Positions 20 through 61,367 of a stretch of 64,000 nt of DNA are shown here, piece after piece. Under the pieces are notes generated by a model. It saw only the letters and a list, made by a program, of their open reading frames with translations, was not told where the DNA came from and searched no databases. Both the position numbers and the translations under genes were made by a program. Where the stretch lies: contig CAZSNC010000001.1 of NCBI GenBank assembly GCA_964608405.1, positions 18,667-82,666 of the forward strand. Reading direction: 5' to 3'. Source of the DNA: an uncultured Gammaproteobacteria bacterium. Its GTDB lineage: Bacteria > Patescibacteriota > Microgenomatia > UBA8517. Numbering within the stretch: position 1 is the first letter of the stretch; the number at the start of each line of letters is the position of its first letter.

Positions 20-730
20 CTACCAAATCGGTGTCGGAGTCGCCTGAACAGTGCAATATGTATTTGAGATTATTGCTCTGTTTCTGACAATACTTTCACC
101 CCAAGTCTCGCAACTTGCTTCCACCGGAGCGTAATTTGAGTCGATATTGTAAATCGAGTAAGGTGTCGGTGATGCGTAAGGCAGTGCCGGTGTTGACGTC
201 GGAAAATTGATAATACCATCAAACACTTCATCATCATCAACTTCTGTATTATCCCCATCACCATCCGTTTCGAAATAATCGGTGAGTGATATATCGGAAT
301 ACTCAATAAAGATCGGCTCAACCGTATCTAACATGTCTTTATCCCCTGAATCGATACAAACACTAACCAGTTTCTTGTCGATAAAAATATATACCTTATA
401 CCCACAATCCCCCCCGCTTACACTTTTACTGAGATATTCTCTCGCCTTTCTCTCCATCATCGAAAAAAACAGATTTATCTGTGTCGAATCCCATGTCTCA
501 TAATAAGATTTGTCTTTTGACTTATACTCAACCAGGCCATTTTGGTCAATAGTAATAACCTCGTCCCCTTTTACGATCTGAATTTGACCATCTTTAATTT
601 GCGGTGTATTTCTTTTACCCCCGCTAAACAACGAGATGAAAATAAAGGCCAAAAACACTATCCCCACAATAAACGACCACACATATACAGGGTTTTTAAA
701 GATATTCTCAGTTGACCTCTTGTTATTCAT
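20..730 (-). CDS. hypothetical bitopic membrane protein immediately downstream of pilC: N-terminal TM helix, then a soluble domain with an acidic stretch and a Cys-containing C-terminus; possible pilus-assembly accessory protein
   Basis: 236-aa ORF with one N-terminal hydrophobic helix (VYVWSFIVGIVFLAFIFISLF) and a DGDGDNTEVDDDEVFDG acidic run. Tightly follows pilC (8-bp gap) on the same strand. No family recognised by eye. Confidence 0.5.
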   Translation of the reverse strand: MNNKRSTENIFKNPVYVWSFIVGIVFLAFIFISLFSGGKRNTPQIKDGQIQIVKGDEVITIDQNGLVEYKSKDKSYYETWDSTQINLFFSMMERKAREYLSKSVSGGDCGYKVYIFIDKKLVSVCIDSGDKDMLDTVEPIFIEYSDISLTDYFETDGDGDNTEVDDDEVFDGIINFPTSTPALPYASPTPYSIYNIDSNYAPVEASCETWGESIVRNRAIISNTYCTVQATPTPIW

Positions 731-9743: not shown

Positions 9744-10715
9744 TTATGGGGCAAGACAACAAGTATCTAAAGTATTATCCGGATCAGTGCCGCAAACCTC
9801 ACCGTTTAGATAATTACACTCCTGATTAGTTATGCATCCATAACCGCCATTACAGGTTGTAAAACCTACAGGTAGTGTTGGAGCTGGAGTTGAGTTAAAA
9901 TTCTCACAGGAAGGATACCAAAGGCCACAAGTGGAATATGTGCCACAGCAAACCCATCGCTGGAATGAATCAAAACAAGCATTGCAGTCAGGGGGAAGTG
10001 TGCAACAACAGTCAGGAAAAGGACCTACTGGATTACATACGGCAGCAGCAACAGAAACCACATTACCTGAACATAAACCATCAGCAACACAACTCCCTGA
10101 AGAAATACTACCGTATACAGCCTGACACGCACTGTTACAATCAGGCGCCGTCGTGGGAGCAGGAGTAAGTGAACCCCTACAGCAACAATTGTTCGGGGGA
10201 TTTGTTAACGCACACATATTATTGTCGGGTACCTCTATTTCATAACTTGCACAACTATTCATCGTACATCTGCCAATATTATTCACATACCCCGCCGCTT
10301 GGCAAGCCGCAGAGCAATCACCTAATGTTCCGGTTGGAATCGAGGTAGGACTAAGCGACACAGTGACGGCTGCCGTTGGACCTACTATTGGAACCCCAAC
10401 ATTACCCAAATTGATTCCAAAAACGACGTTGATTGTTTTTAATATTACCCATAATGCAAAAAGAACAAACAGCCCGGTGACAGCATTAATTATCTTACTC
10501 CTTGCACCTTCCAATTTTTCCTTACTTCCACCGGAGGTAGTCCATTGGATACCACCAAAAATCAAAAGGAGAAAAAATGCGAGTATGCAAATGATATAAC
10601 CAACGTTAATAAATACCGGAATCAATCTATTCGCATAATCCACTGCAGTAAAATTCCTTAATGGTTCGATTAACTGTGGATTGTAAATTCTTTGGACCAG
10701 TGATAGAGCGTTCAT
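9744..10715 (-). CDS. cysteine-rich surface protein with an N-terminal two-helix membrane hairpin (pilin-like) and a C-terminal 6-Cys module; paralog of 11279..13192
   Basis: 323 aa, about 36 Cys. N-terminus is hydrophobic helix - GGIQWTTSGGSKEKLEGARSKIINA - hydrophobic helix; extracellular part is rich in CC/CCC runs. C-terminal CNGGYGCITNQECNYLNGEVC...TCC is shared with the 637-aa protein. ATGA start/stop overlap with the upstream gene. Confidence 0.6.
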   Translation of the reverse strand: MNALSLVQRIYNPQLIEPLRNFTAVDYANRLIPVFINVGYIICILAFFLLLIFGGIQWTTSGGSKEKLEGARSKIINAVTGLFVLFALWVILKTINVVFGINLGNVGVPIVGPTAAVTVSLSPTSIPTGTLGDCSAACQAAGYVNNIGRCTMNSCASYEIEVPDNNMCALTNPPNNCCCRGSLTPAPTTAPDCNSACQAVYGSISSGSCVADGLCSGNVVSVAAAVCNPVGPFPDCCCTLPPDCNACFDSFQRWVCCGTYSTCGLWYPSCENFNSTPAPTLPVGFTTCNGGYGCITNQECNYLNGEVCGTDPDNTLDTCCLAP

Positions 10716-11278: not shown

Positions 11279-13192
11279 CTATTGACAGCAGGTTGTACCG
11301 ACCACTGAATCAAATAGGCACTCTTCTCCACCCATATAATCACATTCTTGATTTGTTGTACATCCATAACCACCATTACAGGCAGCAGAAATAGGATTAG
11401 GAACACAATTGCAATACGTCCAGTTAGTTGCATGTCCGTTGCAAAGGGGGGAAGCTATAGACGCCAATATTCCGCTGTAGCACCCGTGTACATTCGTAAG
11501 ACTACACATATCAACATATGTCATACCATTATCAGCAGTACTATTTGTTCCTATCGATTGGCAAAAATCACCGTTACGAAAACCGTTAAGCCAACAAAGG
11601 TCACGGCAAGATATACCAGTTGCTTCGTTCAATAATATGTTTTCAGCAGCTTGACACCTCCCGTTATTACAAATATTTCCGCCGCAACAATCATTACTTG
11701 TCGAACAACCACTACCTGATAAACGACAACATCTTCCGGCGTCACATCCGTATGTCACATCCGGAAGTGAGGAAATATTTCTACAATCATAAGTTTGGGA
11801 CATTGGAGATGTTGAAACACAATAGTTTTCATTTAATAAAACGGAACTGGAGCAGCGGTCAGATACGGAAGAAAAGACACCCAAACTACTCATACTGCTT
11901 ACAAACCCATACGTTGAATAATTTATTCCTCCATCAGTATCAGTACAAAAAGCTGCAATAGTTGGGGTCGGAAAAGGGGTTGCGGTCGGAACAGGAGTGT
12001 TTGTAGGCAACGGTGTTGAGGTTGGAACTCGTGTTGGAGTAGGTGTAGGAATTCTTGTTGGTGTAGATGTTGGAATAGTTGTTGGAGTTTGTGTCGGAAT
12101 TCTTGTTGGAGTGGGAGTTGCGGTTACTGGGGGAAGAAGAATCCTTGTAGGTATGGGTGTGTTTGTTGATGTTGGTACAACTAATGTTGGCGTTGATGTT
12201 GGAAGATCCAAGCCTCCAACTGGCGGTGTCGTCGGAGTAACATAAGTACAAACCCATGCGCATCCAGGAAGTGGAATAATTGAAACACACGCTGCTTGTG
12301 TAAGCCGACCAGGACACCAACTTGGACCCATACACGAACAAAAATTTGGAACCATTGTTGGGGTTGGTATTAAAGACGGTACTAAAGTCGGGGTTACTTG
12401 TGGACAACACCAACAGTCCTGAGTTGGTCCTGTACAATCACCATTGAAATTCTGACAACCTGGATACGGTGGTTGTGAATTTACCCCTGGTGCACCAACA
12501 CAATAACCCTGTGTAAGAGGTGTACCACTCGGAAGGGGTGTACCCGTTGTAGCAATCCTCGTTGTACATAAAACCGAACAGTCTCTATAAACTACTGGTG
12601 ACGGTGCCACCGGACAACAAATGCAATCTGCTGTTGGATCGGTGCAATTGGTATTAGAATCCCCACAACCAACATACGGATAAGGAGTTCCTGCTGGAAT
12701 ACAATATCCAACTGTACTCCCTGTACAATTATCCGTACAACTTCTATATCCCACAACAACCGATGTAGGAGCTGGACCTCCGCTTCCCGCCGTCCCAAAG
12801 TTGGCAATATCCACTCCAAGAATTAGGTAAACAAGTCTTGAGATGACAAAAATAGAAAGAAGAATCAGGAGTCCGATAATGGCATGAGTAATCTTTCCTC
12901 TTGCTTCCGCAAGTTTACTTTTGTCACCACCTGCCGTAATCCACTGAAATGCTCCGATAATAAAAACAATGACAAAGACAACAACAGCGATTATATAAAC
13001 AATATTTAGCACCCTTGGAATTATTGTATTGATATAATCCCACCCACGTCCGAGCCCACCACTTAAGACGGGATTTGAAACCTGAGTTAACAATACCGAA
13101 TTTAAAAACATACCAATCACTATGATATTAACATAAAGTTGTGAGTATATTCTATAAGTGACACCACACCTCCTTTGTGAATATGAAATCAA
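11279..13192 (-). CDS. large cysteine-rich surface protein: N-terminal pilin-like membrane hairpin, internally duplicated Cys modules, Pro/Thr-rich tandem-repeat linker, C-terminal 6-Cys module
   Basis: Up to 637 aa (the ORF track starts at a TTG; the probable start is ATG at 13111, MFLNS...). Shared N-terminal motif FQWITAGGDKSKLAEARGKITHAII. Internal repeat NCTDPTADCICCP / GDCTGPTQDCWCCP. PT-repeat linker (PTPTRIPT units). A hevein-like spaced-Cys stretch CCRLSGSGCSTSNDCCGGNICNNGRCQ. C-terminal CNGGYGCTTNQECDYMGGEEC...TCCQ. Confidence 0.6.
   Translation of the reverse strand: MISYSQRRCGVTYRIYSQLYVNIIVIGMFLNSVLLTQVSNPVLSGGLGRGWDYINTIIPRVLNIVYIIAVVVFVIVFIIGAFQWITAGGDKSKLAEARGKITHAIIGLLILLSIFVISRLVYLILGVDIANFGTAGSGGPAPTSVVVGYRSCTDNCTGSTVGYCIPAGTPYPYVGCGDSNTNCTDPTADCICCPVAPSPVVYRDCSVLCTTRIATTGTPLPSGTPLTQGYCVGAPGVNSQPPYPGCQNFNGDCTGPTQDCWCCPQVTPTLVPSLIPTPTMVPNFCSCMGPSWCPGRLTQAACVSIIPLPGCAWVCTYVTPTTPPVGGLDLPTSTPTLVVPTSTNTPIPTRILLPPVTATPTPTRIPTQTPTTIPTSTPTRIPTPTPTRVPTSTPLPTNTPVPTATPFPTPTIAAFCTDTDGGINYSTYGFVSSMSSLGVFSSVSDRCSSSVLLNENYCVSTSPMSQTYDCRNISSLPDVTYGCDAGRCCRLSGSGCSTSNDCCGGNICNNGRCQAAENILLNEATGISCRDLCWLNGFRNGDFCQSIGTNSTADNGMTYVDMCSLTNVHGCYSGILASIASPLCNGHATNWTYCNCVPNPISAACNGGYGCTTNQECDYMGGEECLFDSVVGTTCCQ
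11985..12245 (-). repeat. in-frame tandem Pro/Thr-rich repeat region (PTPTRIPT-type units) inside the 637-aa Cys-rich protein
   Basis: DNA-level periodicity encoding ...PTSTPTLVVPTSTNTPIPTRILLPPVTATPTPTRIPTQTPTTIPTSTPTRIPTPTPTRVPTSTPLPTNTPVPTATPFPTPT. Both alternative frames and the antisense strand give long artefactual ORFs (11997..12245 +, 11940..12437 -), as expected for low-complexity repeats. Confidence 0.7.
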
Positions 13193-44368: not shown

Positions 44369-45367
44369 TTAGTTATGCCCCAAGTATATTCTTACGTTAG
44401 AGAAATGTTCTTCGGAAGTCTTTGCGTAATGAATTTCGCCATCAGGTGAGTGTATGTAAAACCAATACTCAGAATCCTGGGGATTGGCTGCGGCTTTAAG
44501 CGATGCTATTCCGGGATTACATATTGGCAAGGGTGGTAAACCATTGTGTTTGTAGGTATTAAAGGGGGAATTTATACTCAAATCGTCTAAGGTTAAAATT
44601 GGCCACCAGTCTTCCCCACTTTTTAAGTTGGCAACAGCATACTGAACGCTGGCATCGACCTGAAGAGGCCATCCGTTTTCAATCCTCTTCCAAAGTATCC
44701 CGGCAACAATAGGTTTTTCAGAAGATGCCTTCGTTTCCCGCTCTAAAATAGAGGCCATGATAACTATTTCGCTTCTAGTGCGGTTTGTACCTTTAGGAAG
44801 AATAACTTCTCCTTCATACTTCTGGTTAAAGGTTGACTTGAGTTTATCGTATACGGCCTTTGCTCCAGCATTTCTCGGAAAAAGATAAGTATCAGGAAAA
44901 AGATACCCCTCGGAGTCTTTTGCAAGCATAAGGAATTGCTCCTTAAAGTCTCTGCCACTTTTTTCATCCATCTCAAGCGACAGGATTATTTTTTCAACAA
45001 CCTCTTCTTTTCTCAACCCTTCCGGAATGGTCACCCATAGTTCTTTCGGTCCCTTACCAAGCGCATTTACAATTTCGGAAACACTCATTGACGGAGAAAG
45101 TTCGAATTCTCCTGCATTGATATTTTTTGATTTGTCAAAAAACTGTACATACAGTTTAAAAACCAACCTGCTTCTGATTAAATTCCTTTTATACAAATCC
45201 TCACCAATTTGCGAGGCAGATTTTCCCTTGGTTACGATAAAACTTACCCGTTCGTTTGAACTTATCGATACTGGAGACATATTATTTTTAAACCAATAGC
45301 AGAAATAGGAAGCAAGGATGATAATGGCGACAAGCACTAATACCAAAACATAATAGGCCTTTTTCAT
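44369..45367 (-). CDS. mltG: endolytic murein transglycosylase MltG (YceG family)
   Basis: 332 aa; N-terminal TM anchor, then the YceG-like domain (…DTYLFP…, …LQVDASVQYA…, ...GLPPLPICNPG...). Confidence 0.8.
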   Translation of the reverse strand: MKKAYYVLVLVLVAIIILASYFCYWFKNNMSPVSISSNERVSFIVTKGKSASQIGEDLYKRNLIRSRLVFKLYVQFFDKSKNINAGEFELSPSMSVSEIVNALGKGPKELWVTIPEGLRKEEVVEKIILSLEMDEKSGRDFKEQFLMLAKDSEGYLFPDTYLFPRNAGAKAVYDKLKSTFNQKYEGEVILPKGTNRTRSEIVIMASILERETKASSEKPIVAGILWKRIENGWPLQVDASVQYAVANLKSGEDWWPILTLDDLSINSPFNTYKHNGLPPLPICNPGIASLKAAANPQDSEYWFYIHSPDGEIHYAKTSEEHFSNVRIYLGHN

Positions 45368-45430
45368 TGATATATTTTAACAAAAAATATTCCAGGATGT
45401 GGAGAAAGCAAAATACATAAAAAAATACGG

Positions 45431-45631
45431 TTAAACCTCTTCCAAAAGTGCCCTTCTGTATTTTTTACTGGATGGGGAATAAATAAAAATCCTTCCACAC
45501 GAGCAGGTCACTTTTTCATTACCTTTCTCGTGCTTTTCTCTCTTACCATCAGATAAAGGCTTACCACAACCAACGCACCTTCCTTGGAAAAGAAGCCACG
45601 CCTGAATCGGAGCAATAACATTTTTCAACAT
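45431..45631 (-). CDS. hypothetical small zinc-ribbon protein
   Basis: 66 aa with CVGCG...CSCG (C-x2-C / C-x-C) spacing. No family recognised; weak support. Confidence 0.35.
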   Translation of the reverse strand: MLKNVIAPIQAWLLFQGRCVGCGKPLSDGKREKHEKGNEKVTCSCGRIFIYSPSSKKYRRALLEEV

Positions 45632-45745
45632 AAAACTATGTTAAGTATATACACAAACACTTTGCCATTGCAAACTAAAAAAATGTTTCCTAAAGAAGAA
45701 ATAGTACTAAGAAGTTTCTTTGCCTGTTTAAATTATCTGCCTAAT

Positions 45746-46129
45746 TTAAATGTTGTCTAGATAATTTTGAAGAATAATTGTAGCTGAGTAAGCATCTTCC
45801 AAGGTTTTCCTCTTTTTCCTTTTTATACTGGCATTAATCGATAACTCCTGTGCAGTTTGGGTTGTTAACGTTTCATCCTGAAATTTTATCTCTGAGGAAA
45901 TTCTTTCTCCAAGTATTTTTGCAAACTCTTTTGTTTCTCCTCCCATTTCTCCTTCAGACATACCAACAACAACAACATCTGCCGATTCTGCTTTTACAAC
46001 CCTTTTGACTTTTTCCAAAGCATCTTCCTTTTTTTCAAACCTAATGACTTTTAAGGGTTCTGCAATCATTCCCTCGGAAATAGATAGCCCTATCTTTTTT
46101 CTTCCGTAATCAATCCCCAAATATTTCAT
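45746..46129 (-). CDS. ruvX: putative pre-16S rRNA nuclease / Holliday-junction resolvase-like RuvX (YqgF)
   Basis: 127 aa RNase H-like fold; MKYLGIDYGRKKIGLSISEG N-terminus typical of YqgF. Confidence 0.8.
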   Translation of the reverse strand: MKYLGIDYGRKKIGLSISEGMIAEPLKVIRFEKKEDALEKVKRVVKAESADVVVVGMSEGEMGGETKEFAKILGERISSEIKFQDETLTTQTAQELSINASIKRKKRKTLEDAYSATIILQNYLDNI

Positions 46130-46154: not shown

Positions 46155-46814
46155 TCAAATCTGTGTTAACAGTGCTCTTACCACCAATCTTTTTGGTTTT
46201 AACGGATGCCCGGGTGGAACACAGGTAACAAGACTAAGGTATGAGTCGTTAACCCTCTGATCCAATATCTCCAGATTGTCCGGTTCCACCTCAAACATAT
46301 CCTTGACCCGATATTTATACACTACATCCCCAATATACACAAAAAATTCATCACCGGGGGTTAATTTCGGAATTGTCGAAAAGATTGTTAAATAGTTCTT
46401 TGCATTAAAAAATACCGGAAGTACTGAATGCCCGAAAATAACAGTGTTGCCGAGCCTGCCTGGCATAGCTGTTCCCGGGTATTGGATAAGCCCTTCCGAA
46501 AGATCCTCACCACCTTCATAAACCGTTGCTTTTTCTATCCCCAGTTTTGGAATGGACAGATAGTATTGGCCTGTACTTTTTTGCTCTGTACCAAATTCAT
46601 AACTTGCCGACCATTCTCTAATGTTTGAATAATCCCTTCCGATTGTAGATAAAATACCATAACGTTCATTTACGGTGATTGGGCTTAATAGTTTCGGAAA
46701 TCTTGTCCTGGAAGTAAGTTCATACTCAGCAATCGGATATACCGAAAAGATTATTATTAATATACCAAATACCGCCAAAATAACAGAGATTACGCGGTAT
46801 TTTGCTTTCACCAT
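46155..46814 (-). CDS. sortase family transpeptidase
   Basis: 219 aa; N-terminal TM anchor; conserved LIQYPGTAMPGRLGNTVIFGHS (catalytic His) and LSLVTC (TLxTC catalytic Cys) motifs; conserved Arg in ...KPKRLVVRA. Confidence 0.75.
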   Translation of the reverse strand: MVKAKYRVISVILAVFGILIIIFSVYPIAEYELTSRTRFPKLLSPITVNERYGILSTIGRDYSNIREWSASYEFGTEQKSTGQYYLSIPKLGIEKATVYEGGEDLSEGLIQYPGTAMPGRLGNTVIFGHSVLPVFFNAKNYLTIFSTIPKLTPGDEFFVYIGDVVYKYRVKDMFEVEPDNLEILDQRVNDSYLSLVTCVPPGHPLKPKRLVVRALLTQI

Positions 46815-46824
46815 TTTCTTGGAC

Positions 46825-49128
46825 TCACTTTTCAGCGCTTATGGAAATTTCTATATTGTCAGCTATTCTGGGAAGTGTCCCAAGCTTTCCGGGAAAACGG
46901 AATTTTTTAAAATTAATTACGGATCTCACGTAACCGGGAACATTATTTTTCATATATTCATCCGCTGTTTCCGGGTATTTTCCGGTAATGTTTTTTCTAA
47001 TTTCATCAATGTCAACCTGTGGAAGAAGATTTGCGCTGACAAAAAGGGACATGTAGTATGTATCATCCTTTTTATTTTTATAAGTGAAATCAGCCTGAAT
47101 CTGATCATTTTTTAAACTGTATCCACTCGGAACCCTCTCGTTTAAATATTTAAGTCCCAACTCTTCTATTTCGCTTCGTTTGGCCAACACTCCCTCCGCC
47201 TCAAGATCAAGTGTTAATTTGAGCGAGGATCCTTCGTCACCAACTTTTTTGTCGTAATCTTTCTTTGCAACGGAATATGTAATCGAGTCTGTAATTAACA
47301 TGTAATCCGACGATACGGCATTTTCCAATTCGTCTTTGAGTGTAGTTTCAAGTTCCTCCTGAAGACTTTCAAGCAAATTCTTCTGATCGCCTTCCGAAAT
47401 CGCGTTTACTTCACGGCTACTCCCGCCGGAAAAGGCCGATTCGTTGGTTGCCTCCATATCGGAGGATGAATAGTTTGATATTGTAAAAGTAGTTCCAGAG
47501 GCGAGGTTGTACTGCGCCCCGATTTCTTTTGCTGTTACCTTTACTTTGGTAATACCGCGTGTCAACACACTGCCACTTGCTACTGTAGTATCTTCATCCA
47601 GAGAAAAATTCAAACTTCCCGGCCCTTTAACTATCGTGTTTTTTGTAAGATTGATTGAGCTGCCTGCCCGGTATATTGTAATCTCCCCCGTTGCTTTATC
47701 TCCAATCACTTTCGTACCCGTAGTTTGCATACTTTTCTCACCGGAGGTTTTCTTAGTTACAACTTCACCGGAAACAACTGCGTTTTCAAAATCTGTTGTG
47801 TTTGATGAAGCGTCTACAGAAATTTCGACTTCGTCTTCAATTTTTTTCGGGGAGACATACAGTGTTACTTCTGCCTTCGGGAAAAACCACCAAAAAGCAA
47901 AAAAACCACCAAGAAGAAGGAAAAGAAACATTAAACCGATAAAAATGGTTTTAGGTGCCTTGAATTTTAGATTAAACTTGGGGAATGAAAATTTGATTTT
48001 CGGTAGGGATATTTTGGTAAATATCGATGTTTTTTCACCCTTTTGCATTACCTGGTTTGGAGCCACCGGCTGAGGCACTGTGGGTTGGGAAATAACTTCT
48101 TCTTTATTTGCTTCTTCACGAACTTGATTTTGGGAATAGTTATCCGAGTCACTTTCCCGAAAATTCTCATAATCTCCCGATTCAGAACTGACTGTAAAAC
48201 CAAAATCTTCAGGGCTCAAATTCTCCGGAGGTTCCTCCACGTTTGTAATCTGCTCCACCGATAATTCCGATTCCGGAGTTTCATTCATATTTTCAACATT
48301 TGCATTTGTGCCCAATGGAGATTCTACAAGCGGCATTACTTTTGTAACATCTCCCATCTCAGCCCCACCGGCAAGACATACAGCATAAATCTTCCTGTCA
48401 GGTGCAACAATTTCAATCTTCGGGGTGTGGAGAAATTTCACTTCCTTCAAACCTTCCCAGTCTGCCTTGATAAGCTCTTGTTTTATCTCATCCAATTCTC
48501 CTTCCTTTGAGTTATAAAGGATAATTCTTGACGGGTACGCTTCCCCCGAATAAAAACGGGAGAGTCCTTCTGTTACGTCTTCAACAACAGAAACACTTCT
48601 GGCAATTTGCGATACGCCTACAAGTTTTCCCAACCTGAAAATGGAAAGCTCCAGATTATTTTCTGAAACACCCAAAAATATCGCGTTGACCTGCCCCCCC
48701 TCCTCGCTTTTGTAATAGTTGGACAACGCCTCAGCCATTACGACAAAACCAACAGGTGTCAACGAAAGTTCCGAGCAGACTCTCTTAATTTTTGAAAGAT
48801 ATTCCTCTTTTATCTCGCCTCCTTCAACCCAGGAAGATACCACTCCAAAAACCACCTTAGATGGAGGATTAAGTTCCTCCGGGAAATTTTGGACTGCCGA
48901 AGAGCAGGAAGCGTCACAAGCAGAAACCAATTCTTCATCAAGATGCCACGAAGACGGAGGGCTTATAGTCACTACCTTTACTTTGTCCCCCTCTAATTTC
49001 CATATACCGGCTGACGCCCATTCCGGCTCGATAATTAAAGACCAGAAGTATTCTTCATCATCCTCTTTCTTCTTGGGCAGGATATTTTTTAAGTCCATAA
49101 ATAACTTGAGATAAAAGGTGATGTGCAA
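46825..49128 (-). CDS. large bitopic membrane protein: cytoplasmic actin-fold (PilM/FtsA/GspL-cyto-like) domain, acidic linker, single TM, and a 350-aa extracellular Ser/Thr-rich beta domain
   Basis: 767 aa. Residues about 20-300 show actin-fold phosphate-1/phosphate-2-like segments (LIIEPEWASAGIWKLEGDKVKVVTIS ... NAIFLGVSENNLELSIFRLGKLVGVS). The TM segment is TIFIGLMFLFLLLGGFFAFWWFF. No obvious catalytic motif in the extracellular part. Abuts the sortase gene (10-bp gap). Confidence 0.55.
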   Translation of the reverse strand: MHITFYLKLFMDLKNILPKKKEDDEEYFWSLIIEPEWASAGIWKLEGDKVKVVTISPPSSWHLDEELVSACDASCSSAVQNFPEELNPPSKVVFGVVSSWVEGGEIKEEYLSKIKRVCSELSLTPVGFVVMAEALSNYYKSEEGGQVNAIFLGVSENNLELSIFRLGKLVGVSQIARSVSVVEDVTEGLSRFYSGEAYPSRIILYNSKEGELDEIKQELIKADWEGLKEVKFLHTPKIEIVAPDRKIYAVCLAGGAEMGDVTKVMPLVESPLGTNANVENMNETPESELSVEQITNVEEPPENLSPEDFGFTVSSESGDYENFRESDSDNYSQNQVREEANKEEVISQPTVPQPVAPNQVMQKGEKTSIFTKISLPKIKFSFPKFNLKFKAPKTIFIGLMFLFLLLGGFFAFWWFFPKAEVTLYVSPKKIEDEVEISVDASSNTTDFENAVVSGEVVTKKTSGEKSMQTTGTKVIGDKATGEITIYRAGSSINLTKNTIVKGPGSLNFSLDEDTTVASGSVLTRGITKVKVTAKEIGAQYNLASGTTFTISNYSSSDMEATNESAFSGGSSREVNAISEGDQKNLLESLQEELETTLKDELENAVSSDYMLITDSITYSVAKKDYDKKVGDEGSSLKLTLDLEAEGVLAKRSEIEELGLKYLNERVPSGYSLKNDQIQADFTYKNKKDDTYYMSLFVSANLLPQVDIDEIRKNITGKYPETADEYMKNNVPGYVRSVINFKKFRFPGKLGTLPRIADNIEISISAEK

Positions 49129-50952
49129 TCACTTTTGAAAAACCATATACACCCTTACAAGACCGCTACCTATTTTTTCTTGCTTATTTATCTTAACATG
49201 ACCAATCTCTCCTGTGTAGGATACATGCGGACCACCACAAAATTCCCGACTTATAGCACTGCTCAAATCCCTTCCGACAAAATAAACTTTTACGATATCT
49301 GCGTATTTCTCACTGAAGGCGTGTATTGCTCCGGTTTTTAAAGCTTCATCTTTTGGCAGAACTTGATAATTTACAGGAAGATTTTGTGAAATTATGTCAT
49401 TAATCAAATCTTCAATGTTTTTCAATTGGGTATCTGTCAATTTTTCGGGGTTTGGAAAATCAAAGCGACTGCGATCTTTGGTAATATTTTGACCCTTCTG
49501 AACAACATGGTCCCCTAATACTTTTCTAAGACACGCAAGAAGTAGATGAGTAGCTGTATGAAACCTCACTACTTCCGGAGAATCGTCAGCCAATCCCCCT
49601 TTAAAAACACCTGAGGATGTGGTTCTTGATAAATTTTTATGTTTTTCGAATTCCTCCTGAAATATTTTCCTGTCTTCCTGGTCAAACTTAACACCTTTCC
49701 TCTCTGCCAGTTCCAAGGTTAATTCAAGCGGAAAACCTTCTGACTGGTAAAGATCAAAAGCAATATTTCCACTCACTTTTTGCCCTTTGGAAATTATATC
49801 CTCAAGTTTTTTTGTCCCCCTATCGATCGCCTTTGCAAATTTATTTGCTTCCTCTTCAACAATTGCACTTATTTCCGAAGTCGGCTTAACCATTATCGGT
49901 ATATTATTTTCAGACAAATCTATAATTGGAAAACCCGAATAATTTCCACCCGAAAGAGATTTTGCATGAAGAACCGCTCTTCTTATAAGTCGGCGCAGAA
50001 TATACCCGTGTGCCTTGTTACTGGGATAAATTCCTCCTGAGATCAATGCAATTGAAGCTCTCAAATGATCCGCAATAATTCTGAAGCTTCTATCTATTTC
50101 CTCACTTTCACCGTATTTTATTTTATATTTTTCTTCAATTTTTCCGATAATGCCTGAAAATAGATCTGTTTGGAAAATATCCGGGTTTTGGTTAATGGCT
50201 GCCACCATCCGCTCCAACCCACCTCCAAAGTCAACATTTTTTTGCGGAAGTTCTTCAATTTTTCCCTCGTCGACTTTTTTATATTGGATAAAGACCGAGT
50301 TGCCGATTTCTAAAAACCTACCACAATCACAATTAGGATGGCATTTTTCATTTTTATATGGTGAGTTTTCGTGAAGATGCAATTCTTCTCCAAAATCATA
50401 AAATATCTCTGAGTCCGGTCCACCAATATGACCGACGTTCATTTCACTTGGAGTTCCCGTCATTGACCACCAATTCTTCTTTGCGCTATAAAAAACAATC
50501 TTACTTTCGGAAATCCCGATTCTTTTCCAGATTTCAAAAGATTCCGTATCTTTGGGAACATCCTCAGTCCCATCAAAAACCGATACCCAAAGCCTCTCTT
50601 TATCAAGTAACAGCTCTTTTGTTAAAAACTCATAAAGCCAAGCCAGCTGGTCAGATTTGAAATAATCACCCAAACTCCAGTTACCCAACATTTCAAAAAA
50701 AGTAATATGTCTATTATCCCCAACCTCTTCAATATCCCCAAGCCTGATTGACGGTTGTGAATTTGTAAGCCGTTTCCCGTCTGGGTGGGCATCACCCAAA
50801 AGATATGGAACAAGCGGCTGCATTCCCGCAGATGTAAAAAGAGTTGAAGGGTCATTATCCAAAACCAATGGTGCCGGGGCAATTTCTTTATGATCCCTAG
50901 GTGAACTTTTAAAATACTTTATATATTTTTCTCTAACATCGACTGCTTTCAT
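49129..50952 (-). CDS. alaS: alanine--tRNA ligase, short form (catalytic + tRNA-binding + editing domains, no C-Ala domain)
   Basis: 607 aa; class II motifs ...FTSAGMQPLVPYLLG..., RHITFFEMLGNWSLGDYFK; editing-domain HTATHLL...H and CGGPHV motifs. Ends about 250 aa short of typical bacterial AlaRS. Confidence 0.85.
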   Translation of the reverse strand: MKAVDVREKYIKYFKSSPRDHKEIAPAPLVLDNDPSTLFTSAGMQPLVPYLLGDAHPDGKRLTNSQPSIRLGDIEEVGDNRHITFFEMLGNWSLGDYFKSDQLAWLYEFLTKELLLDKERLWVSVFDGTEDVPKDTESFEIWKRIGISESKIVFYSAKKNWWSMTGTPSEMNVGHIGGPDSEIFYDFGEELHLHENSPYKNEKCHPNCDCGRFLEIGNSVFIQYKKVDEGKIEELPQKNVDFGGGLERMVAAINQNPDIFQTDLFSGIIGKIEEKYKIKYGESEEIDRSFRIIADHLRASIALISGGIYPSNKAHGYILRRLIRRAVLHAKSLSGGNYSGFPIIDLSENNIPIMVKPTSEISAIVEEEANKFAKAIDRGTKKLEDIISKGQKVSGNIAFDLYQSEGFPLELTLELAERKGVKFDQEDRKIFQEEFEKHKNLSRTTSSGVFKGGLADDSPEVVRFHTATHLLLACLRKVLGDHVVQKGQNITKDRSRFDFPNPEKLTDTQLKNIEDLINDIISQNLPVNYQVLPKDEALKTGAIHAFSEKYADIVKVYFVGRDLSSAISREFCGGPHVSYTGEIGHVKINKQEKIGSGLVRVYMVFQK

Positions 50953-51340: not shown

Positions 51341-51973
51341 TTAAGGTAATTTCGGAATAATTTCGCGAACGACAACCGTCTCTTTCCCGTAACGGGACCT
51401 GGACACAAAAACAAGGTTTTTGGTATCTTTACCAACACTAATTTTATCAGAAAATTCCCCCGTTTCTGAAACCAAAACCTGTTGGTTGTTAACGGTTAAT
51501 GTGGCATCGGAATCGGTCTTGCCAATAACTTTCACCTCTTTTTCAGTAATTTCTACTGCGTTTTCGGGCTGAAGAATATCCAACTTTGGAGGGGCTATAT
51601 ATAAAAGATATTGATAGACAAGATAAGCTAAAACACAAAACACAGCCAAGACAGACAATGCAATTGTAATTATTTTCGGACTTACGGAATGCTTTAAATT
51701 CAAATCCGGTTTAGGATTAATTGGCAATTTCTTTTCGTTAAATGGATAATCACGCCGTAAAAATGCCGTTGCCGAGTCTTCCGGAATATTAAGCTTTTTA
51801 GCGACGGATTTGACAAACCCCTGTATTACCGGGTATTCGGGAAGATTGTCCCAATCTCCTTTTTCAATTAAATCTATAAACTCCTTCTTAATTTTAGTAT
51901 CCTTCTCCATCTGTGAGAGTGAAAGCTTCTTTTTAACTCTTTCCTCCTTCAGGAAGGACCCTATTTTTCTCAT
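51341..51973 (-). CDS. RodZ-like cytoskeleton protein (N-terminal helix-turn-helix, TM, C-terminal periplasmic domain)
   Basis: 210 aa; the HTH region LSLSQMEKDTKIKKEFIDLIEKGDWDNLPEYPVIQGFVKSVAKKLNI resembles the RodZ N-terminus, followed by one TM helix and a beta-rich C-terminus. Confidence 0.55.
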   Translation of the reverse strand: MRKIGSFLKEERVKKKLSLSQMEKDTKIKKEFIDLIEKGDWDNLPEYPVIQGFVKSVAKKLNIPEDSATAFLRRDYPFNEKKLPINPKPDLNLKHSVSPKIITIALSVLAVFCVLAYLVYQYLLYIAPPKLDILQPENAVEITEKEVKVIGKTDSDATLTVNNQQVLVSETGEFSDKISVGKDTKNLVFVSRSRYGKETVVVREIIPKLP

Positions 51974-60389: not shown

Positions 60390-61367
60390 TTAATTTATAG
60401 AAGTACCTCTATAAACTTTTGGCTGCAGCCAATCGTCGGGTGGATTTAATATTTCCTCATTCGCTTTTGCAGCATTGTCATCAGTAACAGGAGTGTCCTG
60501 AATTTCTTGCGGAGTCTCTGGTTGTACCTGGGAAAAGTCGGCGTAATCGGTTGCTGTAACTGATTGCATTATCGGCTGATTTTCGGGAATTTCAGGTTTA
60601 ACAACAGCCTGGGGAATTGATCCTTGTGGATATTTATTTCTGTCAACCGTCTCACCCGAGAGTCTTCTTCCGCCAGCTCTAATTAGAGCTGCGGTAACTT
60701 CAAATGTCTCGGCCGAGACATTTTTGGATTTGTAATTTTGAGTTGCGTCTTCAATACCCATTAAAAAGTTCGTTGCAATATCCGAATCAACTTGAATTTG
60801 GGCTTCGCTCAATAAAAAGAAGGTTAATTCGGATACTGATGCCAACGGCTGGGCAAAAGTATATATTACTTTCGATGGATCAACTGTCAACGGATGTGTT
60901 CCGATATGGTACATTTTTGACGATTCAGTGCCTTTGACTGAAAGTTGTGGAAAATCGGCGTCTGTATTACCACCAAAAAGAATTACCGTGTCAGCGGATA
61001 CTCCTTCATATGTAATCCTTACCTGCTCCGCTTTCGGAGGGTTGATTCCGGATTTGGGAAGCACGGTTAATTTAAATTGGTCTTCAACAATGTCATAACT
61101 TACTTTTTCAATGTTGTTGGCATCATATCCTGAAAAGCCTATAACCAAATTCTTATTGCCGGTTTCTCCGGAAATTCTATCAACACCGATTAATCTGTTT
61201 AATGAAACTGTGACTGGAGACGCCGACACAATCTGAACAGGTTTGGAATCCTTAAGGCCCAAAAACAATGACAGTGCCGATGCTACTTCGTCAAAAGACG
61301 GTGATTTGGGAAGAAAAATCACAAGAGACTGGGATTGTGCGATAACCGATCTAAATGAACCTTCCAT
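60390..61367 (-). CDS. DHH-family-like protein (NrnA-like fold) with degenerate catalytic motifs and Pro/Glu-rich C-terminal tail
   Basis: 325 aa. The central segment DSDIATNFLMGIEDATQNYKSKNVSAETFEVTAALIRAGG matches the NrnA/DHH motif-IV region (A..L..GI..DT..F...T......L...G). The positions of the DHH-family metal-binding motifs (H-x-NPDGDA and DHH) are replaced (LPKSPSFDE ...), and no GGGH (DHHA1) motif is present. Confidence 0.4.
   Translation of the reverse strand: MEGSFRSVIAQSQSLVIFLPKSPSFDEVASALSLFLGLKDSKPVQIVSASPVTVSLNRLIGVDRISGETGNKNLVIGFSGYDANNIEKVSYDIVEDQFKLTVLPKSGINPPKAEQVRITYEGVSADTVILFGGNTDADFPQLSVKGTESSKMYHIGTHPLTVDPSKVIYTFAQPLASVSELTFFLLSEAQIQVDSDIATNFLMGIEDATQNYKSKNVSAETFEVTAALIRAGGRRLSGETVDRNKYPQGSIPQAVVKPEIPENQPIMQSVTATDYADFSQVQPETPQEIQDTPVTDDNAAKANEEILNPPDDWLQPKVYRGTSIN

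What the first reader, a model, noticed from the sequence alone, without database searches (positions are those of the whole stretch)
46825..49128. 767-aa membrane protein with cytoplasmic actin-fold domain + TM + large extracellular domain (GspL-like / PilM-PilN-fusion-like), orphaned 43 kb from pilB-pilC and paired with a sortase
Seen: residues about 20-300 have the interleaved beta-hairpin/helix pattern of actin-fold ATPases. A phosphate-1-like segment is LIIEPEWASAGIWKLEGDKVKVVTIS, the connecting helix is SELSLTPVGFVVMAEALSNYY, and a phosphate-2-like segment is NAIFLGVSENNLELSIFRLGKLVGVS. An acidic Ser/Glu linker, a single TM helix and a 350-aa Ser/Thr-rich beta-type ectodomain follow.

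Established knowledge: a cytoplasmic actin-like domain followed by a TM and a periplasmic domain is the architecture of T2SS GspL, which equals a PilM+PilN fusion in type IV pilus systems.

Inference: this may be the PilM/N-equivalent scaffold for the pilB-pilC machinery elsewhere in the window, encoded remotely and with an unusually long ectodomain. Alternatively it is a distinct envelope-spanning scaffold working with the adjacent sortase.
Basis: partly seen in the sequence, partly recalled or inferred. Interest (0 to 1): 0.65.

Follow-up and report, generated by a model that had tools for sequence, protein, structure and literature searches.

The report
FtsA-like head fused to envelope protein
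This gene encodes a membrane-spanning protein of an uncultured ultra-small bacterium. Its inner end is a stripped-down, ATP-motif-less copy of the cell-division protein FtsA, and its outer end is a conserved cell-envelope domain. It is always encoded next to a sortase, so it is most likely an undescribed cell-wall or division scaffold, not a missing part of the type IV pilus machine.

Summary
Window 46825-49098 (- strand) encodes 757 aa from the conserved ATG: an actin-fold domain, an acidic disordered linker, one TM helix and a 350-aa ectodomain.

- **Pilus reading not supported.** The organism has its own PilM and a PilO-like gene beside pilB-pilC. The head shows no profile similarity to that PilM. 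None of 83 related loci has pilB or pilC within 7-10 kb.
- **Origin.** The head is homologous to an FtsA-like protein (hhalign 96.8%, E 2e-10). In other Candidate Phyla Radiation (CPR) lineages that protein is a separate gene directly upstream of a homologue of the TM+ectodomain (99.6%), at the same alaS...ruvX-mltG position (61/61 loci). The Microgenomates protein is therefore a gene fusion.
- **Losses.** The head lacks subdomains 1C and 2B and all three nucleotide-binding motifs.
- **Baseplate J.** The match covers only a roughly 100-residue beta-barrel.
- **Sortase.** It follows the gene in 78 of 79 testable loci, and also where all other synteny is lost.

Most likely it is an envelope-spanning division or cell-wall scaffold working with the sortase. 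The function is inferred, not shown. I found no description of it in the literature.

The parts
46825..49098 (-). Coding sequence of the fusion protein: 757 aa from the conserved ATG, stop codon at 46825-46827. The ORF formally extends to a TTG at 49128.
   Evidence: ORF list. All 120 closest homologues are 712-793 aa and start at MDLK. The ATG lies 30 nt after the alaS stop.
49063..49098 (-). Conserved N-terminal peptide MDLKNILPKKKE (family pattern M-[DE]-L-[KP]-x-[LFI]-L). It is basic and amphipathic, and unstructured in the model.
   Evidence: Column frequencies over 410 members. pLDDT is below 50 for residues 1-13. The split FtsA-like protein starts MALKDMLKK and aligns with it.
48349..49053 (-). 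Cytoplasmic minimal actin-fold (ASKHA superfamily) domain, aa 16-250. It is FtsA-derived, has only the 1A+2A core, and lacks nucleotide-binding motifs.
47950..48348 (-). Variable acidic, presumably disordered cytoplasmic linker (aa 251-383), ending in a lysine-rich juxtamembrane stretch.
   Evidence: Conservation profile. Linker sequences from 20 members.
48196..48210 (-). Conserved short motif E-D-F-G-F in the linker (family pattern [DES][LF]GF).
   Evidence: Found in 288 of 386 full-length members. Also present in the most divergent member, P0405, as ERMGF.
47881..47946 (-). Single transmembrane helix (aa 385-406), N-terminus inside and C-terminus outside.
   Evidence: Hydrophobic stretch preceded by a lysine-rich segment. 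Modelled as a helix.
46828..47880 (-). Ectodomain (aa 407-757): membrane-proximal beta-sheet, beta-barrel, long helix, then two alpha/beta domains.
47410..47700 (-). Beta-barrel of the Baseplate-J / GlxA type within the ectodomain.
46155..46814 (-). Membrane-anchored sortase, 10 nt downstream, the conserved partner gene.
   Evidence: Pfam Sortase E 2.7e-24; below the cut-off of every NCBIfam class model. Adjacent in 78 of 79 testable loci and in five distant Microgenomates loci, including L093.
49129..50952 (-). alaS (short AlaRS), the conserved upstream neighbour.
   Evidence: Pfam. Synteny.
44369..46129 (-). ruvX, a 66-aa zinc-ribbon ORF and mltG (YceG): the conserved downstream block that also follows the unfused homologues.
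   Evidence: Pfam..

Best explanation
The gene encodes a bitopic envelope-spanning scaffold that arose by gene fusion.

**Shown**
- The cytoplasmic head is a minimal actin-fold domain derived from an FtsA-like protein. It keeps only the 1A and 2A core and has lost the 1C and 2B subdomains.
- It has also lost the phosphate-1, phosphate-2 and adenosine motifs.
- The head is joined through a disordered acidic linker, which carries a conserved [DE][LF]GF motif, and one TM helix to an ectodomain. That ectodomain is conserved from CPR bacteria to a large-genome bacterium.
- In other CPR lineages the two halves are separate adjacent genes (ftsA-like, then TM-ectodomain protein), at the same position between alaS and ruvX-mltG.

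**Inferred**
- Given those lost motifs, the head should neither bind nor hydrolyse ATP.
- The split pair forms a complex, with the actin-like protein docking on the cytoplasmic end of the bitopic partner. The fusion makes that link permanent.
- The protein couples a cytoplasmic division or cytoskeletal partner to the cell wall outside.
- In Microgenomates it works with the co-transcribed membrane sortase. For example, it may place sortase-mediated anchoring of surface proteins where new peptidoglycan is made.

It is not the PilM/PilN of the type IV pilus machine.
For: **Fold and homology**
- Fold.
- Head versus the FtsA-like proteins of L092 and L094: hhalign 96.8% (E 2e-10) and 94.1% (E 1e-7). 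Twenty shuffles of the L092 protein gave at most 1.2%.
- The L092 protein is FtsA-family: TIGR01174 E 1.5e-36, PF14450 E 1.8e-17, FtsA structures E 3.5e-13 against PilM 4e-8.
- TM+ectodomain versus P0409: 99.6%, E 6e-24 over 361 columns. Versus P0412: 98.4%.

**Split arrangement**
- ftsA-like is followed directly by the ectodomain protein in 61 of 61 testable metagenome loci. alaS lies upstream and ruvX-mltG downstream.
- The same gene pair occurs in a Moranbacteria-type locus with otherwise unrelated neighbours.
- In a 4.26-Mb chromosome the ectodomain protein overlaps ruvX by 4 nt and mltG follows.

**Motif loss**
- DIGT becomes IIEP, DIGGGT becomes GVSENN, and CGGG becomes YNSK.
- Across the family no Asp occurs among the common residues at the phosphate-2 position, where G, Q, R, N, E and K account for 379 of 410 sequences.

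**Sortase link**
- 78 of 79 testable loci.
- Retained in Beckwithbacteria-level relatives even though other genes are inserted after the sortase.
- Retained in L093, where alaS, ruvX and mltG are absent and a class A PBP follows the sortase.
- 10-nt intergenic gap and no intergenic terminator.
- Méheust et al. 2019 (PMC6744442) report this sortase family as near-ubiquitous in Microgenomates and patchy in other CPR groups. That matches the distribution of the fused form.

**Cell-wall and division neighbourhood**
- FtsK, a RodZ-like protein and MltG flank the gene; a PBP does so in L093.
Against: - No experiment exists, and all functional steps rest on gene neighbourhood and domain analogy.
- alaS and ruvX are equally conserved neighbours with no obvious envelope role, so synteny alone is weak evidence. 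Within Woesebacteria the whole 20-kb region is frozen.
- The head lacks 2B, the FtsZ-binding subdomain of FtsA, and 1C. It therefore cannot act like FtsA in any known way.
- No sortase substrate was found in the window, and the protein itself has no sorting signal.
- One Woesebacteria locus (L082) has ruvX directly after the gene, with no sortase between them.
- I could not determine whether Microgenomates keep a separate canonical FtsA.
- The ectodomain model has pTM 0.57, so its domain arrangement is uncertain.
Confidence: 0.55

Rival explanations
1. It is the PilM/PilN-equivalent (GspL-like) inner-membrane scaffold of the type IV pilus machine encoded by pilB-pilC 43 kb away.
Against: - The organism has a canonical PilM (PF11104) and a PilO-like gene about 4 kb from pilC.
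- hhalign of the head against that PilM gives 0.1%, against 96.8% for the FtsA-like protein.
- No PilM or GspL model hits it.
- The ectodomain is unlike PilN, PilO or GspL.
- No locus has pilB or pilC within 7-10 kb.
- The unfused partner is FtsA-family.
Confidence: 0.04
2. It is a dedicated platform for a sortase-assembled surface fibre or pilus. The ectodomain, with its baseplate-type barrel, would oligomerise outside the membrane as the assembly or anchoring site, with no link to division.
For: Sortase adjacency survives loss of all other synteny. The sortase scores highest against the class C (pilus-polymerising) model, though far below its cut-off (58 against 160 bits). Baseplate J-type wedge proteins form rings in phage tails (established knowledge; structural hits).
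Against: - Homologous ectodomain proteins exist without any adjacent sortase in three other lineages. The module therefore predates and does not require the sortase.
- No LPXTG-type substrate or pilin gene is next to it.
- The similarity to baseplate proteins covers only one barrel of about 100 residues, which GlxA shares.
Confidence: 0.15
3. The sortase adjacency is historical accident. The protein acts in peptidoglycan remodelling with MltG, or in another housekeeping process of the alaS-ruvX-mltG cluster, and the head is a vestigial remnant.
For: The ectodomain family sits beside ruvX-mltG across phyla, including an operon-like 4-nt overlap with ruvX in a non-CPR genome and 58 of 80 metagenome loci. 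The whole region is frozen in Woesebacteria.
Against: - The head is strongly conserved (36 invariant columns among 45 sequences). About 1,400 clusters keep the same architecture, so it is not vestigial.
- In L093 the mltG link is lost but the sortase link is kept.
Confidence: 0.2
4. It is a remnant of a prophage or contractile injection system, as the public annotation 'baseplate J/gp47 family protein' implies.
Against: - Only 93 of 255 profile positions match.
- There are no tail, sheath or tube genes nearby.
- The gene sits in a strictly conserved housekeeping context in more than 80 species.
- It has a TM helix and a cytoplasmic actin-fold head.
Confidence: 0.02

Closest known systems
FtsA (bacterial actin-like division protein; TIGR01174, PF14450)
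   Different: - It lacks subdomains 1C and 2B. 2B is the FtsZ-tail-binding site.
- It lacks all three nucleotide-binding motifs.
- It is anchored by a TM helix plus a 350-aa ectodomain instead of a C-terminal amphipathic helix.
- No FtsA model detects it directly.
GspL of type II secretion, equivalent to a PilM+PilN fusion in type IV pilus systems
   Same: Same design logic: a nucleotide-free actin-like cytoplasmic domain fused through one TM helix to an extracytoplasmic domain. An unfused two-gene version exists in other organisms.
   Different: - The actin-like lineage differs: FtsA-like, not PilM or GspL.
- The ectodomain differs: beta-barrel plus alpha/beta domains, not the PilN/PilO/GspL ferredoxin-like domain.
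- The neighbours differ: alaS, sortase, ruvX and mltG, not gspE/F/M or pilB/C/N/O.
- The genome has its own PilM.
PilM (PF11104)
   Different: No sequence or profile similarity to the organism's own PilM. PilM binds ATP and carries a 1C-type insert. No pilus genes lie nearby.
Baseplate J / gp47 / gp6 wedge proteins and the GlxA beta-barrel domain (PF04865, PF21110)
   Different: The rest of the wedge protein is absent. The setting is cellular, membrane-anchored and housekeeping. The public name 'baseplate J/gp47 family protein' is misleading.
RodZ (HTH - TM - ectodomain protein that binds MreB)
   Same: A bitopic protein linking an actin-family cytoskeletal system to the wall side. A RodZ-like gene lies 2 kb upstream in the same conserved block.
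   Different: RodZ binds an actin homologue through an HTH domain. Here the actin-fold domain is part of the bitopic protein itself.

Membership tests
ASKHA / actin-like fold superfamily | Duplicated beta-beta-beta-alpha-beta-alpha-beta-alpha core (lobes 1A and 2A) | tested here: met
ASKHA / actin-like fold superfamily | Phosphate-1 (DxG), phosphate-2 (DxGGGT) and adenosine (GG) nucleotide-binding motifs | tested here: not met
   Aligned to the FtsA-like protein, DIGT becomes IIEP, DIGGGT becomes GVSENN and CGGG becomes YNSK. Among 410 members the phosphate-2 Asp position is G, Q, R, N, E or K in 379. About a third keep a Glu at the phosphate-1 position.
FtsA | Detected by FtsA family models (TIGR01174, PF14450) | tested here: not met
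   No Pfam or NCBIfam hit on the head. No PDB sequence hit even with a profile at E up to 10. Only profile-profile homology to an FtsA-like protein.
FtsA | Subdomain 1C and subdomain 2B (the FtsZ C-terminal peptide site) | tested here: not met
   The head is about 235 residues against 370-420. The hhalign gaps fall at residues about 105-185 and 265-310 of the FtsA-like protein. The model contains only the two core lobes.
FtsA | C-terminal amphipathic membrane-targeting helix | tested here: not met
   Replaced by the linker, a TM helix and the ectodomain. The split FtsA-like proteins end in short amphipathic-looking segments.
FtsA | Binds FtsZ and acts in the divisome | not testable with these tools
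   No ftsZ in the window. No tubulin signature within 8 kb of the split homologues.
PilM (type IV pilus) | Matches PF11104 / TIGR01175 | tested here: not met
   No hit. hhalign against the organism's own PilM gives 0.1%.
PilM (type IV pilus) | Encoded with pilN/pilO and near pilB/pilC | tested here: not met
   None within 7-10 kb in 83 loci. A separate PilM plus PilO-like pair lies next to pilB-pilC.
GspL (type II secretion) | Actin-like cytoplasmic domain, then a TM helix, then an extracytoplasmic domain | tested here: met
   The overall architecture is shared.
GspL (type II secretion) | GspL family models, a ferredoxin-like periplasmic domain, and gspE/F/M neighbours | tested here: not met
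Baseplate J (PF04865) | Full-length match to the wedge protein, with tail genes alongside | tested here: not met
   The score passes the gathering threshold (29.7 against 21.1 bits) but covers only positions 21-113 of 255. The same barrel matches GlxA. No tail genes are present.
Sortase substrate | C-terminal LPXTG-type motif, then a hydrophobic segment and a basic tail | tested here: not met
   The C-terminus is a conserved beta-strand (...GTLPRIADNIEISISAEK) with no hydrophobic tail. The same C-terminal pattern occurs in homologues that lack a sortase neighbour. No candidate was found in a scan of the window.

The most novel reading that the evidence does not exclude
The split pair (FtsA-like protein plus TM-ectodomain protein) and its fused Microgenomates form are a previously unrecognised, CPR-wide component of the division or wall-growth machinery. 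It would be an envelope-spanning partner of FtsA, filling a role comparable to the bitopic divisome proteins of other bacteria. In Microgenomates the fusion, with its ATP-dead head, would recruit the housekeeping sortase to sites of new wall synthesis.
Probability: 0.3. Interest if true: 0.75.

Novelty: new variant of a known kind. Interest (0 to 1): 0.6.

Why it matters
- **A concrete lead in a poorly known group.** CPR/Patescibacteria are a very large share of bacterial diversity, yet almost nothing is known about how they divide and build their envelope. The head-domain family comprises about 1,400 clusters at 50% identity. In every lineage examined it sits in a conserved core-gene neighbourhood, yet it is annotated only as 'hypothetical' or, misleadingly, as a phage baseplate protein.
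- **A testable interaction.** The fusion predicts that an FtsA-family protein binds this bitopic envelope protein in lineages where they are separate. Some Saccharibacteria are cultivable, but whether the split loci found here are Saccharibacteria was not established.
- **An evolutionary parallel.** It is an independent example of the PilM+PilN to GspL type of event: an actin-like protein fused to its membrane partner and stripped of ATP binding.
- **A new link.** It ties a sortase to an actin-fold scaffold, which has not been described.

Tried and rejected
- **Sequence searches on the head found nothing.** Pfam, NCBIfam and the PDB, both with the single sequence and with a profile at E up to 10, gave no hit. 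Only structure comparison and profile-profile comparison revealed its relatives.
- **Own PilM.** hhalign against the organism's PilM found no similarity.
- **First hhalign was inconclusive.** With the narrow 45-sequence profile against the FtsA-like protein it gave 12.8%. A 410-sequence profile raised this to 96.8%, with shuffled controls at most 1.2%.
- **Sortase substrates.** A scan of the window for LPXTG-type signals returned only spurious hits.
- **Promoters and terminators.** The number of terminator-like sites equals the chance expectation. The only use made of the scan is that none lies in the alaS/target/sortase intergenic gaps.
- **Literature.** Searches on baseplate J with Patescibacteria, sortase with CPR and pili, FtsA with Patescibacteria, MltG/RuvX/alaS, and FtsA-like with CPR found no description of this family. 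The 2026 Pam-pilus preprint is unrelated.
- **Canonical FtsA.** A search of the window and the Woesebacteria loci found none. The only weak hits fell inside the head itself. This covers only about 20 kb per genome and says nothing about the rest.
- **Prophage-remnant reading** was rejected (see rival explanations).
Full report
**1. What is there**

On the - strand, an ORF runs from 49128 (TTG) to 46825. All close homologues begin at the ATG ten codons downstream (MDLKNILP...), so the protein is most likely 757 aa (49098-46825). The ATG lies 30 nt after the alaS stop, and the sortase gene starts 10 nt after the target's stop.

The window is a housekeeping region of a Woesebacteria-type member of the Microgenomates, part of the Candidate Phyla Radiation (CPR, also called Patescibacteria). 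Every gene is on the - strand...RNase J, FtsK, a RodZ-like HTH_25 protein, a small TM protein, AlaRS, TARGET, sortase, RuvX, a 66-aa zinc-ribbon ORF, MltG/YceG, RpoB, RpoC... PilB and PilC lie 43 kb away.

Conservation along the protein defines five parts:
- a well-conserved N-terminal domain (aa 1-250);
- a variable acidic linker (251-383);
- a lysine-rich juxtamembrane stretch;
- one TM helix (385-406);
- a conserved ectodomain (407-757).

**2. The N-terminal domain is a genuine but minimal actin fold**

No Pfam, NCBIfam or PDB sequence search detects it, not even a family profile at E up to 10.

An AlphaFold2 model built on 45 family sequences is confident: pLDDT 91.1, pTM 0.87. It shows the duplicated beta-beta-beta-alpha-beta-alpha-beta-alpha core of the ASKHA (acetate and sugar kinase / Hsc70 / actin) fold superfamily.

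Structure searches agree:
- Foldseek gives PilM and FtsA at E 1e-8.

The domain has only about 235 residues, against 330-420 for PilM and FtsA, so it consists of the 1A and 2A lobes alone.

**3. It is not the pilus PilM/PilN**

- Contigs carrying a PilC identical to the window's show a canonical PilM about 4 kb beyond pilC, just outside the window. It is 470 aa and matches PF11104 at E 1.4e-13. A PilO-like ORF follows it.
- A 410-sequence profile of the head has no similarity to that PilM (hhalign probability 0.1%).
- Among 80 species-representative genomes and 3 further contigs, none has pilB or pilC within 7-10 kb of the gene.
- Méheust et al. 2019 (PMC6744442) already describe PilM, PilN and PilO co-localised with PilB and PilC in CPR genomes.

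**4. Where the head comes from**

Walking outwards through the family led to proteins that share only the TM helix and ectodomain and carry a different, roughly 90-aa cytoplasmic N-terminus: P0408-P0412. Direct profile comparison confirms the homology over the whole TM+ectodomain:
- P0409: 99.6%, E 5.6e-24, 361 columns.
- P0412, from a 4.26-Mb chromosome too large for a CPR genome: 98.4%, E 1e-14.

Their gene contexts are the key result:
- **L092.** The order is alaS, a separate 420-aa FtsA-family gene, P0409, ruvX, mltG.
- **L094.** This cluster includes a Moranbacteria protein. The same pair, FtsA-like then P0411, occurs among otherwise unrelated genes.
- **The non-CPR chromosome.** P0412 overlaps ruvX by 4 nt and mltG follows.

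The separate gene is FtsA-family rather than PilM. It scores TIGR01174 E 1.5e-36 (below the equivalog cut-off) and PF14450 E 1.8e-17. FtsA structures score E 3.5e-13, against PilM 4e-8.

The broad profile of the target's head aligns with it end to end at 96.8% probability and E 2e-10 (residues 1-235 against 1-371). It aligns with the L094 orthologue at 94.1%. Twenty shuffled controls reached at most 1.2%. Even the N-terminal peptide corresponds: MDLKNILPKKK against MALKDMLKKSDK.

A metagenome scan with the two FtsA-like proteins returned 80 loci at 72-100% identity. In 61 of the 61 that could be tested, the ectodomain gene follows immediately. Among all 80 loci, alaS is detected in 68, ruvX in 61 and mltG in 58. 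No tubulin signature occurs within 8 kb, and there is no sortase.

The Microgenomates protein is therefore a fusion of an FtsA-like gene with its downstream bitopic partner, at the same chromosomal position.

**5. What was lost in the fusion**

The alignment places gaps where FtsA carries subdomains 1C and 2B. All three nucleotide-binding motifs are replaced:
- DIGT becomes IIEP.
- DIGGGT becomes GVSENN.
- CGGG becomes YNSK.

Across 410 family members the phosphate-2 Asp position is G, Q, R, N, E or K in 379. The Gly-rich loop is absent. About one third keep a Glu at the phosphate-1 position.

By inference the head is a non-catalytic protein-binding module, as the GspL cytoplasmic domain is (the latter from established knowledge). 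Without 2B it cannot bind the FtsZ tail in the way FtsA does.

Two conserved short elements may be docking sites, though their roles are unknown:
- the N-terminal amphipathic, basic peptide;
- a linker motif [DES][LF]GF, present in 288 of 386 members.

**6. The ectodomain**

The model has pLDDT 85.8 and pTM 0.57, so the individual domains are good but their arrangement is uncertain. It shows a membrane-proximal beta-sheet, a beta-barrel, a long helix and two alpha/beta domains.

Several lines show that the 'baseplate J' annotation overstates the similarity:
- The Pfam Baseplate_J match covers only positions 21-113 of 255.
- In relatives the same barrel matches the GlxA beta-barrel model.

The annotation thus reflects one shared barrel, not a baseplate. 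The ectodomain's activity is unknown.

**7. The sortase link**

In Woesebacteria the whole block from RNase J to rpoB is frozen. Adjacency there (78 of 79 testable loci; L082 is the exception) says little on its own.

More telling evidence comes from further away:
- In Beckwithbacteria-level relatives, genes such as NUDIX or a methyltransferase have been inserted between the sortase and ruvX. The alaS-target-sortase triad stays intact.
- In the most divergent member, P0405 (L093), alaS, ruvX and mltG are gone. The orthologous sortase still follows directly and is itself followed by a class A PBP.
- The split homologues in three other lineages have no adjacent sortase.

The fused form and the sortase pairing therefore go together. 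[quoted passage not shown]

The sortase has an N-terminal TM helix, and motifs resembling the catalytic His, Cys and Arg segments can be read in its sequence. It reaches no class-specific cut-off. The target has no sorting signal, and the window contains no evident substrate.

**8. Most likely mechanism**

*Shown:* a bitopic protein with an ATP-motif-less, FtsA-derived head inside and a conserved multidomain module outside. It evolved by fusing two genes that are otherwise adjacent, and it is encoded in tight apposition with a sortase within a neighbourhood of division and wall genes (FtsK, RodZ-like, MltG; a PBP in L093).

*Inferred:*
- The split proteins form a complex.
- The fusion hard-wires that complex.
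- The protein couples a cytoplasmic partner, probably from the division or cytoskeletal machinery, to the wall side.
- In Microgenomates it organises or positions the sortase relative to new peptidoglycan.

Confidence differs by layer. I put the anatomy and evolutionary origin at about 0.85 and the functional reading at about 0.4-0.5.

In TM7x the annotated ftsA and ftsZ carry distant locus tags (TM7x_02800 and TM7x_00785; bioRxiv 10.1101/2022.03.25.485537). This is compatible with the split FtsA-like gene being that organism's ftsA, but I did not verify it.

**9. Comparison and novelty**

In design the protein works like GspL, that is, like PilM plus PilN. It is a member of neither family, and it fails the defining tests for FtsA, PilM, GspL and Baseplate J (see the membership table).

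I found no description of the family, of the split pair or of the sortase link in the searchable literature. I rate it a new variant of a known kind: an actin-fold bitopic scaffold, with a new lineage of head, a new ectodomain and a new partner.

**10. Limits**

- I could not test whether Microgenomates retain a canonical FtsA.
- I could not model any complex.
- I could not identify the taxon of the L092-type lineage or of the 4.26-Mb chromosome.

Noticed in passing
L084:11881-14135 (contigs sharing the window's PilC; just beyond window position 1): A canonical PilM (470 aa, PF11104), a PilO-like 231-aa ORF and a 78-aa ORF lie about 4 kb past pilC. They are separated from it by three divergently oriented ORFs of unknown function. 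The pilus inner-membrane platform is therefore encoded next to pilB-pilC.
   Followed up: partly
window 9744-10715 and 11279-13192 (- strand): Two large proteins (323 and 637 aa) carry an N-terminal T4SS_pilin (PF18895) domain. They sit between recA and the undecaprenyl-diphosphate synthase gene.
   Followed up: no
window 51341-51973 (- strand): A RodZ-like protein (HTH_25, a TM helix, then a Glucodextran_B-like ectodomain) lies directly downstream of ftsK. It is syntenic in every related locus. It is another bitopic protein in the same conserved block.
   Followed up: partly
window 45431-45631 (- strand): A 66-aa Cys-rich (zinc-ribbon-like) ORF lies between ruvX and mltG. It has no Pfam hit. 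An ORF of exactly 66 aa occupies this position in Woesebacteria, Beckwithbacteria and other Microgenomates loci.
   Followed up: partly
window 48196-48210 and 49063-49098 (- strand): The target has two conserved short elements of unknown role. One is a linker motif [DES][LF]GF, present in 288 of 386 members. The other is an N-terminal basic amphipathic peptide M-[DE]-L-[KP]-x-[LFI]-L, shared with the unfused FtsA-like protein (MALKDMLKK).
   Followed up: partly
window 49129-50952 (- strand): AlaRS is only 607 aa. It has the catalytic and tRNA_SAD domains but lacks the usual C-terminal extension. The length is similar (575-645 aa) in related loci.
   Followed up: no
whole window 1-64000: All real genes are on the - strand, and GC skew is negative in every 2-kb window, so cumulative skew falls monotonically. 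The strand bias is strong, as reported for another Microgenomates genome (PMC7143001).
   Followed up: no
window 20-730 and 60390-61367 (- strand): Two ORFs of 236 aa (just downstream of pilC) and 325 aa (between infB and pnp) have no Pfam match.
   Followed up: no
L094:5300-8554: In the Moranbacteria-type locus the FtsA-like/ectodomain pair is followed by a 1084-aa protein with no Pfam hit. A DUF8128/DUF87/TrwB-like ATPase lies further downstream.
   Followed up: no
L082:860-2842: One Woesebacteria contig has a shorter family member (660 aa) followed directly by ruvX with no sortase between them. It is the only exception among the testable loci.
   Followed up: partly
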